This document shows, piece by piece, positions 26,957-29,900 of a stretch of 32,000 nucleotides of DNA; within the stretch, counting starts at the first letter, position 1, and each line of letters begins with the position of its first letter. Position numbers: made by a program. This DNA comes from Deinococcus radiodurans R1 = ATCC 13939 = DSM 20539. Lineage in GTDB: Bacteria; Deinococcota; Deinococci; Deinococcales; Deinococcaceae. The stretch lies in the NCBI RefSeq assembly GCF_000008565.1, contig NC_001263.1:215660-247659 (forward strand), read 5' to 3'.

Positions 26957-29900
26957 GCCGCGCCCGGCGTGCTTGGCGAGCACGGCGTAGGCGATGACCT
27001 CGATGGCGCCCAGCGTGCGGCCATCGCGTCCGGCGAGGCGGGCCGCGTTCTCGCCGCTGATTTCGGCTTCCAGCGCGTCCTCGGTTTCGCGGACTTGCAC
27101 CCGCAGCCCGGGGTCGATGCGCGCCGTGAGCTCGGCGAGAAACTGCTCGAGCACGGCGCGGGGGTCCTCGTCGGCGCCGTGCAGCGGGGCGGACACCGGG
27201 GCCGCGTCGGGAGCGGGCGGCGGCAGGGCGCTCTCGTCGGCGTCGCTGATGCCCAGCCCCGCGAGGTAGTCGTCCAGATTGGTGCGGTTGTCCATGAGAG
27301 TCAGTGTAGCGTCACGTCCTCCCCGGATGAGGACCGCACCCCCTACGGAGCGGCCCTTTGCTCAAGGTGTTCCAGAATCACCACCGCCGAGGCGTGCTCG
27401 CGGGTGTGGGTGAGCGTGAGGTGCGCCACCCAGCCGCGCTCGTGCATTTCCCCGGCAATTGCGGGCGCGAAGCCGAGCATCGGCGCCGCGTAGGGAAAAG
27501 GCCCGTCCGGCGTGCGCTCGCGCTCCACCCACACGTCACGCCAGCCATGCGGACGGAGCCAGACTTTTTGAAAGGCTTCCTTGGCGGCGAAGCGGGCCGC
27601 CAGACTCGGCGCGGGGTCGCGGTAGCGGCCAGCGTAGGCCAGTTCGGTGGCGGTAAACAGCCGCTCGGCCCGCACGCCTTCGCGTTCCAGCATCCGGCGA
27701 ATCCGGGCAATTTCAATCAGGTCGTGACCGACGGCGACAATCACAGCCGCGCTCCTGCCTTGCTCGCAGCTTGCGTGGGGTCTCGCCCGATGTTCTGCCG
27801 CATGGGGGTCAGTCTAGCGGTCTGATACGGTTCCAAATTGAGCCCCGGACATGTCCAGGCGTAATTTTGCGCGGAGCGCATGGAAAAAATACGGTTTTAA
27901 GGAGATGGGCGGGTATCCGGCGCCTTTCCGGATGTTCGGGAATCGGATGAAAACCGTATGAGCAGCGCCACCGAAATCAGCCGACCTCAGAAGAGTTCAG
28001 CTCCGTATAACACCGCTACACTGGCCCCATGTCCGCACCCCTTTTTCCCGACCTGCGCCTTCAGTCGGTGGCCGCCCTGCTGCGTGAGGGAGCCGGCGAA
28101 TGGCGCACGCTGGGGGTCACGCGGATTCGGGTCTTCGGCAGCGTGGCGCGGGGCGAGGCGGACGCGGCGTCGGACGTGGACCTGCTGGTGGACTTCGCGC
28201 CGGGGGCGGAGGTCGGCCTGCTGCACCTGATGCGGGTCAAGGCGGTACTGGAGCACTTACTTGCGCGCCGGGTGGACGCCGTAACCGAGGCGAGCCTGCG
28301 CGCCCCCCTGCGCGGCGAAATCCTGGCCGACGCGGTGGACGTGATGGACGTGCCCGCCACACTCGCCCCCACCCACCGGCCCAAGCGCTGGCGCTGGCGG
28401 CTCTTCGACCTGCTCGCCACGCTGGACCGCCTGTTCGCGCTGACTGCGCCGCTGACCCTCACCACTTTCCAGATGCGTGAGGAAGTGCAGGACGCCGCGC
28501 TGCTCGGCCTGCTGCGGCTCGGTGAGACGACGAAGTACATCCCCCAGAGCGTGCAAGACCGCCACCCCGAACTGCCGTGGGCTTACCTGCGCGACATTCG
28601 CAACCTGATTGCCCACGACTACTTCAGCATTGACCCCGTGCTGGTGTGGCACACCGTGCGCGACGAGTTGCCCGCCCTGCGCCCCCTGCTGCAAGCCCTG
28701 GCTGACAGTCCCGAACTCGACCTGATTCCCAGCCCCCGTCCGTAGGGAACAGTTCAGGTCCAAGAGAGGGCCGAGCGCTCCCGCCAGTACGTTTCCGCCG
28801 GCTGAGCGAGCGTGATCAGGGCGGCGAGGTCCACCTCCAGATGGAGCGCCCGCAGGTTTTGTCGTAGTTGCTCCGCCGTACTCGCCCCGCTCAGCACGAT
28901 GTTCACCCACGGCTGCTGCAAGGCGGCGGCGAGGGCCACCGCGTCCGGGGTTACGCCCAGTCGCCGGGCTTCGGCGGCGAGTGGCGCGGGCACATCGCTC
29001 TGCCCCGTCACGCCCCGCGCGCTCAGGCGGCCATTGGCGACTCCTTCCTTGACGACCACCGTCCAGCCCGCCGCGTGCGCTTCGGCCAGCGCCGCGCCCG
29101 CCGAGGGTTCGAGCAGGTTCCAGGTCGCCTGCACCGCCCGGAAGGGGCACGCGCCGTTCACCCGCGTCGCTAGCGCCCGCCGCAGCGTGTCGGCCTGCCG
29201 GGGGCCACTGGTGCTCAGGCCCACCCGTACGCCCTGCCTCCCCAGTTCGGCGAGCCGTGCCAGCACCCGTTCATCGTCCAGCACGCCACTGTCGAGGGTG
29301 GCGGAGTGGATGAGGTAAAGGTCGGGGGCGCGTCCGAGGGCGCTCAATGTCTCGGGCCATTGCCTCTCTAATGTGGCGAGCGAGTGGTCCTTGACCTCGT
29401 GCACCGGGGCGTCGCTGCGCCAGTCGGCGACGTAGGTGTAGCCCCATTTGCTGCCCACCGTCAGGGTGTCCGGCGCGTGCCCGCGTGCCCGCAGCCAGCC
29501 GCCCAGAAACTCCTCGGCGCGGCCATAGCTGCGGGCGGCGTCGAACACCCGCAGGCCCGCGTCCCACGCCGCGTCGAGCATCGCCCAGGTGTGGTCGCGC
29601 AGGTCGTCTCTTCCCTTGTCCGGCCCCAGGTCGGCGCCGTGCCCCAGGTTGAGGTAGCCGGGCCGCCCCAGCGCCGCCAGACCCAGGCCCAGTCGTGGGG
29701 TATGGGTTTGGCGCGGGGAGGCAGAGACAGACTGGGTGGAAGGGGCGGTCATGCGGATATTCTGCCTGTCCTGCCGGGAGAGGCTGGCCCGGGGGCCGCG
29801 CCCGCTGGCCCGCACCTGCCCATACAATGTGCGGCGTGACCGACCTCTCTGATTCCCGCCCGTCGCGGACCGCCGCCCGGGTCGCGCAGGTCGCCAGCGG

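What the first reader, a model, noticed from the sequence alone, without database searches (positions are those of the whole stretch)
28029..28745. Single-polypeptide MNT-HEPN: a toxin-antitoxin pair fused in cis with all catalytic and target residues intact
Seen in sequence:
- One 238-aa ORF combines an N-terminal minimal nucleotidyltransferase (GSVARGEADAASDVDLLVDF, aa 37-56) with a C-terminal DUF86-type HEPN domain (RNLIAHDY, aa 191-198, nt 28599-28622).
- The two are joined by a short Pro/Thr/Arg linker (MDVPATLAPTHRPKRW).

Established knowledge:
- In MntA-HepT systems these are normally two overlapping genes.
- The NTase neutralises the HEPN RNase by oligo-AMPylating a tyrosine immediately after the Rx4H motif. 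Here that position (HxY) is conserved as Y198.

Inference:
- A cis-fused version would be a self-modifying, self-neutralising RNase. It could not be activated by differential antitoxin decay, so it would need a different trigger, such as de-AMPylation, ATP depletion or proteolysis of the linker.
- The gene is leaderless-type (TACACT-N6-ATG) and has host-like G+C, so it is probably long resident.
Basis: partly seen in the sequence, partly recalled or inferred. Interest (0 to 1): 0.62.

Follow-up and report, generated by a model that had tools for sequence, protein, structure and literature searches.

The report
Single-chain MntA-HepT fusion, Deinococcus core gene
This is a real gene joining an antitoxin-type adenylyltransferase to the toxin-type RNase it normally silences; nearly all Deinococcus species keep it at one chromosomal spot, but a 2026 Shewanella study already described such fusions, so it is an uncharacterised member of a known kind.

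Summary
Window 28029-28745 (+) is one 238-aa ORF. It has an N-terminal minimal nucleotidyltransferase (Pfam PF01909, exact GS-X10-DXD) and a C-terminal HepT-like/DUF86 HEPN domain (PF01934, exact RX4HXY). Y198 aligns with the tri-AMPylated Y104 of Shewanella HepT.

The fusion is not an artefact.
- It is present in 98 of 111 genomes of the genus (86 of 93 high-quality ones).
- It lay divergently beside acpS in all 11 relatives examined.
- All catalytic and acceptor residues are effectively invariant in 117 orthologues.
- Both domains are under purifying selection, while the linker is fixed in length but free in sequence.
- A canonical leaderless -10 box is conserved upstream, and G+C is host-like.

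The idea is not new. Fusions of DUF86 with MNT were noted in 2013. A fused MNT-HEPN protein (FhepTA, SO_1440) was shown in 2026 to self-oligoAMPylate in cis and to block HEPN dimerisation. Intact fusions are also common: 65 of 93 non-Deinococcus representatives keep both motifs.

The Deinococcus lineage differs from FhepTA. It has no cysteine redox switch, no mobile context, and is inherited like a genus-core gene.

Most likely it is a domesticated, self-silencing RNase.

The parts
28017..28022 (+). -10 promoter box TACACT, 6 nt before the ATG. No Shine-Dalgarno sequence is present, so the mRNA is predicted to be leaderless.
   Evidence: Sequence. A TANNNT box lies 6-8 nt (10 nt in one case) upstream of the start in all 12 orthologous loci. 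PMC12340547 reports TACACT as the most frequent -10 motif in D. radiodurans, about 6-7 bp upstream of ORFs. The consensus sigma-70 scan found nothing.
28029..28745 (+). Complete ORF of 238 aa plus stop: the single-chain MNT-linker-HepT protein.
   Evidence: The AF2 model has pLDDT 92.5 and pTM 0.82.
28056..28343 (+). MNT (MntA-like minimal nucleotidyltransferase) domain, about aa 10-105.
   Evidence: Pfam PF01909 and PF18765. It is 44% identical to the Thermus MNT 1wot by sequence and fold. Foldseek also hits the MntA structures 8xeo and 7bxo. dN/dS is 0.20-0.27 in the closest pairs.
28137..28181 (+). GS-X10-DXD catalytic signature: G37, S38, then D49-V-D51.
   Evidence: G37 is found in 116, S38 in 115, and D49 and D51 in all 117 orthologues. 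This is the signature defined for MntA in PMC7641770.
28275..28277 (+). D83, the third conserved acidic residue of the NTase fold.
   Evidence: Invariant in 117 of 117 orthologues and in the non-Deinococcus fused set (D75 of alignment A2). Its role is assigned from general knowledge of the Pol-beta NTase fold.
28344..28382 (+). Interdomain linker, aa 106-118: Pro-rich, variable in sequence, fixed in length.
   Evidence: There are 14 residues between D104 and K119 in 91 of 117 orthologues (range 12-26). dN/dS is 0.4-1.0. pLDDT dips to 76 here. No internal Met is conserved (44 of 117). One species carries an in-frame 45-aa insert at this point.
28383..28724 (+). HepT-like (DUF86) HEPN domain, aa 119-232. 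It begins with the clade-specific invariant K119-R-W-R-W-R124.
   Evidence: Pfam PF01934. Foldseek hits the HepT toxins 7ae6, 5yep_C and 6m6u_G. dN/dS is 0.14-0.24 in the closest pairs. KRWRWR conservation is shown.
28599..28622 (+). RX4HXY motif R191-N-L-I-A-H196-D-Y198: the predicted RNase active site plus the predicted AMP-acceptor tyrosine.
   Evidence: R191 and H196 are found in 117 of 117, N192 in 116 and Y198 in 116 orthologues. The profile alignment places R191, H196 and Y198 on R97, H102 and Y104 of SO_3166. Y104 is the tri-AMPylated residue (PMC7641770).
27343..27744 (-). acpS (holo-ACP synthase), the conserved divergent neighbour that anchors the synteny.
   Evidence: tblastn found acpS adjacent and divergent in all 11 relatives' loci. 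The spacer was 32-120 nt in most of them, against 284 nt here.
27822..27963 (.). A dispersed repeat of about 142 bp (MITE-like) inserted between acpS and the fusion gene's promoter. It is not part of the gene.
   Evidence: About 40 copies at 86-95% identity in the window's own genome. Terminal inverted repeat AATACGGTTTT...AAAACCGTAT. No Rfam hit.

Best explanation
The ORF encodes a genuine single-chain descendant of a type VII MntA-HepT toxin-antitoxin pair, and Deinococcus has kept it as a chromosomal gene.

Shown here:
- The two domains are present, with the exact GS-X10-DXD and RX4HXY signatures.
- Those residues are invariant across orthologues.
- Both domains are under purifying selection.
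- The linker is constrained in length but not in sequence.
- The two domains pack into one confident model.
- The gene has a fixed syntenic position and a conserved leaderless -10 box.

Inferred by analogy with MntA/HepT and with the fused Shewanella protein FhepTA:
- The MNT domain uses ATP to attach one to three AMPs to Y198 of the same chain. Y198 lies next to the R191/H196 RNase site.
- The MNT domain also keeps the HEPN domain from forming the dimer that HEPN RNases need.
- The RNase would be released when ATP falls, when AMP is removed, or when the N-terminal MNT part is proteolysed. It would then cleave RNA and slow growth.

Because the gene is vertically inherited, non-mobile and dispensable, I read it as a domesticated, energy- or stress-gated RNase and not as an addiction module.
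For: - Domains and motifs.
- Fold: pLDDT 92.5 and pTM 0.82. The two domains separately match solved MntA and HepT structures.
- Fusion is real and genus-wide.
- Synteny with acpS in 11 of 11 loci.
- dN/dS is 0.14-0.27 in the domains against 0.4-1.0 in the linker.
- Linker length is fixed at 14 residues in 91 of 117 orthologues.
- No close relatives on plasmids or phages.
- Experimental precedent for cis self-oligoAMPylation, a linker requirement and blocking of dimerisation in a fused MNT-HEPN protein: PMC13000451.
- One natural case fits co-dependence of the two halves: in G121 the MNT half has decayed, and the HEPN motif has lost the Tyr (HDS) and diverged.
Against: - No biochemistry exists for this protein or for any Deinococcus orthologue. 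AMPylation, RNase activity and toxicity are all untested.
- NCBIfam's MntA and HepT equivalog models score 35 and 18 bits against cut-offs of 60. It is therefore not in the characterised equivalog families, and its sequence relation to SO_1440 could not be tested.
- It has no cysteines, so FhepTA's redox layer cannot apply.
- The gene was not found in 7 high-quality genomes of the genus, so whatever it does is dispensable.
- Expression and the transcription start site could not be checked.
Confidence: 0.62

Rival explanations
1. Exapted nucleotidyltransferase. As in kanamycin or aminoglycoside nucleotidyltransferases and GlnE-type enzymes, the HEPN-like C-terminal domain would serve only as a substrate-binding or regulatory module. 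The enzyme would nucleotidylate a small molecule, an RNA or another protein, with no RNase function.
For: Anantharaman et al. 2013 state that HEPN domains fused to MNT in multidomain proteins are typically inactive and represent domesticated TA systems (PMC3710099). The core-gene behaviour here fits domestication. Foldseek lists ANT, AadA and KNTase enzymes as full-length matches.
Against: R191, N192, H196 and Y198 are effectively invariant, and the HEPN domain has the lowest dN/dS of the protein. The full-length ANT/KNTase matches are poor (TM 0.25-0.34, rmsd 9-13 A), whereas the separate domains match MntA and HepT. Pfam assigns the C-terminal domain to HepT-like, not to KNTase_C or NTase_sub_bind.
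Confidence: 0.12
2. Single-gene anti-phage abortive-infection sensor of the CapRel type. The fused protein sits closed until a phage protein or phage-induced ATP/NTP depletion opens it, and the RNase then kills or arrests the infected cell. Phage defence would be the selected function.
For: The MNT half matches the PADLOC candidate defence family PDC-S09 (E 1e-24). HepT/MntA systems are discussed as possible ATP sensors in antiviral defence, and fused TA proteins such as CapRel work this way (PMC13000451).
Against: Defence genes are usually patchy, mobile and found in islands. This gene is syntenic beside acpS across the genus, has host G+C, has no relatives on phages or plasmids, and evolves under steady purifying selection without the diversification expected of a phage-sensing surface. 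The PADLOC hits cover the generic MNT fold only.
Confidence: 0.15
3. Artefactual or decaying fusion: a sequencing or assembly error, or a recent stop-codon loss or frameshift joining two genes of a normal MntA/HepT operon.
For: The order's other families, and this genome itself, carry normal two-gene pairs. In two draft genomes the orthologue is split by a frameshift or interrupted (G007, G018).
Against: The same uninterrupted frame is present in about 94 independent genomes of the genus and about 120 database proteins. Both halves are under purifying selection. The linker length is conserved.
Confidence: 0.01

Closest known systems
FhepTA (SO_1440) of Shewanella oneidensis MR-1, the fused MNT-HEPN toxin-antitoxin (Yao et al., Nucleic Acids Res 2026, PMC13000451)
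   Same: Both are single polypeptides with MNT at the N-terminus, a short linker and a HepT-type HEPN at the C-terminus. [quoted passage not shown] The predicted logic is the same: cis self-oligoAMPylation plus MNT blocking HEPN dimerisation, with release by ATP loss, AMP removal or N-terminal proteolysis.
   Different: FhepTA is 276 aa with a longer MNT part, a hydrophobic SAQNHFII linker and two HEPN cysteines forming a redox switch. It sits on prophages or mobile islands and has more than 90% similar split versions in sister species. The Deinococcus protein is 238 aa with a Pro-rich 13-14-aa linker and no cysteine. It is syntenic and vertically inherited across a genus, and no close split sister was found. 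Direct sequence comparison was not possible because SO_1440 was not retrievable. It is probably an independent fusion.
Canonical type VII HepT/MntA pairs (SO_3166/SO_3165, PDB 5yep/7aer/6m6u; Aphanizomenon HEPN/MNT, 7ae6/7ae9; Legionella, 8xeh/8xeo)
   Same: Same two folds and same signature motifs. Y198 aligns with Y104 of SO_3166. The domain order matches the gene order MNT then HEPN.
   Different: Those are two separate genes and proteins forming 2:6, 2:2 or 1:4 complexes, and they are mobile with a patchy distribution. Here there is one chain with obligate 1:1 stoichiometry. It scores below the NCBIfam MntA and HepT equivalog cut-offs.
Thermus thermophilus minimal nucleotidyltransferase (PDB 1wot) and the split MNT/DUF86 pairs of Thermus and Deinococcus (for example DR0679-DR0680)
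   Same: This is the closest solved relative of the MNT half (44% identity, TM 0.78 on the target) and it comes from the same phylum. The genome itself holds two such split pairs.
   Different: They are stand-alone roughly 100-aa proteins encoded next to a separate DUF86 gene. The split-pair HEPNs of this genome fall outside the fused Deinococcus clade in the tree.
Kanamycin/aminoglycoside nucleotidyltransferases (KNTase 1kny, ANT(4'), AadA)
   Same: An NTase domain followed by a helical HEPN-related domain in one chain.
   Different: Their C-terminal domains lack Rx4-6H and bind antibiotics. The global superposition is poor (TM about 0.3).

Membership tests
[quoted passage not shown] | MNT (Pol-beta-type minimal NTase) domain with GS-X10-DXD | tested here: met
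   PF01909 at E 7e-14. G37-S38-X10-D49-V-D51 is invariant in orthologues. The motif definition is from PMC7641770.
[quoted passage not shown] | HepT-like/DUF86 HEPN domain with RX4HXY (RNase site plus acceptor Tyr) | tested here: met
   PF01934 at E 2.4e-18. R191...H196-D-Y198 is invariant and aligns to R97/H102/Y104 of SO_3166.
[quoted passage not shown] | Two adjacent genes, with the antitoxin upstream of the toxin | tested here: not met
   It is one ORF with no conserved internal start. Only the domain order is retained.
[quoted passage not shown] | Scores above the curated NCBIfam equivalog cut-offs (MntA_antitoxin NF047752, HepT_toxin NF047751) | tested here: not met
   35.4 and 18.1 bits against cut-offs of 60.
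[quoted passage not shown] | MNT oligo-AMPylates the Tyr of HepT, and unmodified HepT is a growth-arresting RNase | not testable with these tools
   Needs mass spectrometry and toxicity or RNase assays.
[quoted passage not shown] | Mobile, patchy distribution typical of TA modules | tested here: not met
   Present in 98 of 111 genomes of the genus at a syntenic site. Not found on plasmids or phages. G+C is host-like.
FhepTA-type fused MNT-HEPN | Single polypeptide, MNT then a short linker then HEPN, with both motif sets intact | tested here: met
FhepTA-type fused MNT-HEPN | Two HEPN cysteines forming a redox or disulfide switch | tested here: not met
   The window protein has no cysteines. Of 55 aligned orthologues, 42 have none and 13 have one.
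FhepTA-type fused MNT-HEPN | Carried on prophages or mobile genetic islands, with near-identical split versions in sister strains | tested here: not met
   Synteny next to acpS. The nearest split pairs are only 26-47% identical.
FhepTA-type fused MNT-HEPN | Sequence homology to SO_1440 closer than to split pairs (shared fusion event) | not tested
   The SO_1440 sequence was not obtainable with the tools. The HEPN tree shows that fused and stand-alone forms interleave, so fusions are recurrent.
FhepTA-type fused MNT-HEPN | Intramolecular self-oligoAMPylation and a monomeric state that blocks HEPN dimerisation | not testable with these tools
   A confident single-chain model exists (pTM 0.82), but no coordinates or multimer prediction were available.
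KNTase/ANT-type nucleotidyltransferases | C-terminal helical domain without Rx4-6H, and a global fold match | tested here: not met
   Rx4H is retained and invariant. Foldseek gives TM 0.25-0.34 and rmsd 9-13 A to 1kny, 6un8, 5lpa and others.

The most novel reading that the evidence does not exclude
A former selfish toxin-antitoxin pair has been welded into one chain and domesticated as a genus-wide Deinococcus housekeeping device. It would be an ATP-charge-gated RNase, silenced by self-AMPylation and expressed from a leaderless mRNA, that imposes translational arrest during the energy collapse after desiccation or irradiation and so contributes to recovery. This would be a physiological role for a type VII module that is distinct from addiction or phage defence, in a lineage that fused independently of Shewanella FhepTA.
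Probability: 0.2. Interest if true: 0.55.

Novelty: new member of a known kind. Interest (0 to 1): 0.3.

Why it matters

The only studied fused example sits on mobile elements. Here the same architecture has been kept at one chromosomal position through the radiation of a whole genus, with every catalytic and acceptor residue frozen. This is the signature of a host-beneficial function.

D. radiodurans is genetically tractable and non-pathogenic. It also holds two ordinary split pairs as internal controls. A knockout and point-mutant series there could show what a domesticated type VII module does.

The strict linker length with a free sequence, together with a natural 45-aa linker insertion in one species, gives a ready test of the tether-geometry requirement reported for FhepTA.

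Beyond that, the finding is incremental, because the concept itself is published.

Tried and rejected
- **Artefact or frameshift hypothesis:** rejected by the genus-wide survey.
- **Internal translation start releasing a free HepT:** GTG/ATG codons exist at aa 103-108 in this strain, but no Met is conserved in the linker (44 of 117), so rejected.
- **Structured RNA or riboswitch in the long upstream spacer:** Rfam found nothing. The inverted repeat belongs to a roughly 142-bp dispersed repeat with about 40 copies.
- **Sigma-70 consensus promoter and terminator scan:** nothing found. The relevant promoter type is the Deinococcus TANNNT box.
- **Literature search for the locus tag I guessed from memory (DR0248 / DR_0248):** no papers. 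I therefore do not assert a locus tag.
- **The search for related loci with the divergent fused alignment:** It was replaced by a profile search.
- **Naming the nearest non-Deinococcus representatives:** almost all are unnamed metagenome proteins.
- **Cis distance between Y198 and the NTase site:** no model coordinates are exposed.
- **PDB sequence search:** no solved structure of this protein or of any fused MNT-HepT.
- **Radiation/desiccation response motif upstream:** not tested, because I could not recall the consensus reliably.
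Full report
**1. Observation**

Window 28029-28745 (+) is a single 238-aa ORF starting at an ATG. 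The quoted peptides are at the stated positions:
- GSVARGEADAASDVDLLVDF is aa 37-56.
- RNLIAHDY is aa 191-198, nt 28599-28622.
- The linker MDVPATLAPTHRPKRW is aa 106-121.

Pfam places NTP_transf_2 (PF01909) on aa 23-99 (E 7e-14) and HepT-like (PF01934) on aa 131-223 (E 2.4e-18). Both are well above their gathering scores.

NCBIfam's MntA_antitoxin and HepT_toxin equivalog models do hit. They score only 35 and 18 bits against cut-offs of 60. The protein therefore belongs to the superfamilies but not to the characterised equivalog groups.

By sequence the only solved relative is the Thermus thermophilus minimal nucleotidyltransferase 1wot, at 44% identity over the MNT half.

**2. Is the fusion real?**

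Yes.
- A word-indexed search found about 120 full-length proteins (roughly 200-285 aa) at 46-90% identity. Almost all are from Deinococcus and carry both Pfam domains.
- Six-frame searches of genomes found a match in 98 of 111 genomes of the same genus, and in 86 of 93 high-quality ones. Nearly all were one uninterrupted frame covering about residues 3-229.
- Other families of the order had only separate, adjacent MNT and HEPN genes at 26-47% identity.
- The window's own genome has three PF01934 genes: this one and two ordinary split pairs, at C1:688230-688824 and C1:1832604-1833160. The first corresponds in position to the DR0679-DR0680 pair discussed by Makarova et al. 2009.
- The contig sizes (2,648,638; 412,348; 177,466; 45,704 bp) match what I recall for Deinococcus radiodurans R1.

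**3. Conservation and selection**

In 117 full-length orthologues the key residues are invariant or nearly so:

| Residue | Conserved in |
|---|---|
| G37 | 116 |
| S38 | 115 |
| D49, D51, D83 | 117 |
| R191, H196 | 117 |
| N192 | 116 |
| Y198 | 116 |

The spacing is exactly GS-X10-DXD and RX4HXY. These are the signatures defined for MntA and HepT, where Y104 of SO_3166 is the tri-AMPylated residue (PMC7641770). A profile of the Deinococcus HEPN domain aligns R191/H196/Y198 onto R97/H102/Y104 of SO_3166. The overall E-value is weak (0.014), but the motif register is exact.

Nei-Gojobori dN/dS for the closest orthologue pairs is as follows:

| Region | dN/dS |
|---|---|
| MNT domain | 0.20-0.27 |
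| HEPN domain | 0.14-0.24 |
| Linker | 0.4-1.0 |

The linker is variable in sequence and Pro-rich, but its length is tightly held. There are 14 residues between D104 and K119 in 91 of 117 orthologues. No internal Met is conserved there (44 of 117), so a separately translated HepT is unlikely. A clade-specific invariant K119-R-W-R-W-R124 opens the HEPN domain.

**4. Structure**

AlphaFold2 with a 55-sequence alignment gives pLDDT 92.5 and pTM 0.82. Only the linker (about 76) and the termini are less confident.

Foldseek against the PDB matches the N-terminal half to MNT antitoxins (1wot, 8xeo, 7bxo, 1no5). It matches the C-terminal half to HepT toxins (7ae6, 5yep_C, 6m6u_G).

Full-length matches to aminoglycoside and kanamycin nucleotidyltransferases are poor, with TM 0.25-0.34 and rmsd 9-13 A. 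No fused MNT-HepT structure is in the PDB. Model coordinates are not exposed, so I could not measure whether Y198 reaches the NTase site in cis.

**5. Genomic setting**

In all 11 relatives examined, the gene lies divergently next to acpS. Most spacers are 32-120 nt. In this strain the spacer is 284 nt, because a dispersed repeat of about 142 bp (about 40 copies in the genome) is inserted at about 27822-27963.

A TANNNT box lies 6-8 nt (10 nt in one case) upstream of the start codon in all 12 loci, without a Shine-Dalgarno sequence. Here it is TACACT-N6-ATG. PMC12340547 reports TACACT as the most frequent -10 motif in D. radiodurans, about 6-7 bp upstream of ORFs, driving leaderless mRNAs for about a third of its genes. 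The leaderless claim is therefore supported comparatively.

Gene G+C (69.7%, GC3 87%) matches the neighbours. No close relative occurs on plasmids or phages. Only split pairs were found there, for example on Thermus plasmids. The gene thus behaves as a vertically inherited, near-core but dispensable gene: it was not found in seven high-quality genomes of the genus.

**6. How common is the architecture?**

A profile search of 1.84 billion representative proteins returned 40,930 hits. Of the best 150, at least 82 are single-chain MNT-then-HEPN proteins. A few are reverse-order HEPN-then-MNT fusions.

Of 93 non-Deinococcus fused representatives, 91 keep GS-X(9-11)-DXD, 66 keep RX4HXY and 65 keep both.

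A second profile search gave more than 100 further fused proteins. The few named ones come from a cyanobacterium (Hormoscilla), Chloroflexi and Vicinamibacteria. JGI already labels many as 'uncharacterized protein with HEPN domain/predicted nucleotidyltransferase'.

In a HEPN-domain tree the Deinococcus proteins form one supported clade (SH-aLRT 98). Across the tree, fused and stand-alone forms interleave, needing at least 26 label changes, of which at least 4 are forced by well-supported branches. Fusion or fission has therefore been recurrent. The tree is poorly resolved (114 columns), so the sister group of the Deinococcus clade is not established.

**7. What is already known**

- Anantharaman et al. 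2013 list DUF86 HEPN as 'occasionally fused to MNT'. They predicted nucleotidylation of the conserved Tyr. They also remarked that HEPN domains fused to MNT in multidomain proteins are typically inactive.
- Makarova et al. 2009 mention a HEPN-MNT fusion on plasmid pAgK84.
- Yao et al. 2026 (PMC13000451) studied the fused Shewanella protein FhepTA (SO_1440). It tri-AMPylates its own Tyr240, apparently intramolecularly. The linker is required. NTase-dead and Y240F mutants are still non-toxic, because the MNT part keeps the HEPN domain monomeric. Two HEPN cysteines add a redox switch. The MNT part is trimmed from the N-terminus in vivo. The genes lie on prophages or mobile islands, with more than 90% similar split versions in sister strains.

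**8. How the Deinococcus protein differs**

- It has no cysteines, so no redox layer.
- It is shorter, with a roughly 100-aa MNT of the Thermus 1wot type and a Pro-rich linker.
- It is fixed at one chromosomal site across a genus instead of riding on mobile elements.
- No close split sister was found.

Natural variants add small hints:
- G084, a 99% complete genome, has an in-frame 45-aa insertion in the linker with all motifs intact.
- G007 is frameshifted exactly in the linker, with both halves intact. This is either a sequencing error or a re-split.
- G018 is interrupted.
- In G121 the MNT half is riddled with stops, and the remaining HEPN frame has HDS instead of HDY and is more diverged. 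That fits co-dependence of the halves, but it is a single case.

**9. Mechanism and rivals**

Most likely (about 0.6) this is a domesticated FhepTA-like self-silencing RNase. The MNT domain would AMPylate Y198 in cis and hold HEPN off. Release would come from ATP loss, AMP removal or N-terminal proteolysis.

Three rivals remain:
- An exapted NTase with a non-catalytic HEPN domain (about 0.12). The invariant R/H/Y residues and the fold matches argue against it.
- A CapRel-like single-gene abortive-infection sensor (about 0.15). Only generic MNT hits to PADLOC PDC-S09 support it, and synteny and steady purifying selection argue against it.
- An artefact (about 0.01), which is refuted.

**10. Verdict**

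The protein is a new, uncharacterised member (probably an independent fusion) of a kind that is already described. Interest is modest. Its main value is as a tractable case of a type VII module that has become a stable host gene.

Noticed in passing
window 27822-27963: A dispersed repeat of about 142 bp with terminal inverted repeats (AATACGGTTTT...AAAACCGTAT). It has about 40 copies at 86-95% identity in the window's own genome and is inserted between acpS and the fusion gene's promoter. Relatives have only a 32-120 nt spacer there. It has no Rfam family. It looks like a MITE or one of the small non-coding repeats of D. radiodurans.
   Followed up: partly
own genome G000:C1:688230-688824 and C1:1832604-1833160 (outside the window): Two ordinary two-gene MNT/DUF86 pairs coexist with the fused gene. 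The first matches the position of the DR0679-DR0680 pair that Makarova et al. 2009 described as a recent insertion. Their HEPNs fall outside the fused clade in the tree, so they are useful internal controls for cross-talk experiments.
   Followed up: partly
L023 (G084:C1:2430300-2431700): The orthologue in this complete genome is a roughly 310-aa ORF with an in-frame 45-aa insertion exactly in the interdomain linker. All catalytic motifs are intact. It is a natural test of linker-length tolerance.
   Followed up: partly
L021 (G007:C12:469300-470400), L022 (G018:C162:5400-6800), L024 (G121:C1:1018600-1019900): There are three disrupted orthologues. G007 is frameshifted within the linker with both halves intact, which could be a re-split or a sequencing error. 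G018 is interrupted by about 100 nt, with a 17-aa stretch duplicated. G121 has an MNT half full of stops and a HEPN motif reading HDS instead of HDY.
   Followed up: partly
representative proteins P0165, P0176, P0184, P0205, P0220, P0245: Reverse-order single-chain HEPN-then-MNT fusions also exist among the nearest representatives. Both domain orders have therefore been fused in nature.
   Followed up: no
L002-L011, spacer between acpS and the fusion gene: In most relatives the two divergent start codons are only 32-50 nt apart. Two back-to-back leaderless-type promoters must share this tiny spacer, so co-regulation of acpS and the fusion gene is possible.
   Followed up: no
window aa 1-11 and aa 119-124 of the ORF (nt 28029-28061 and 28383-28400): [quoted passage not shown]
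   Followed up: no
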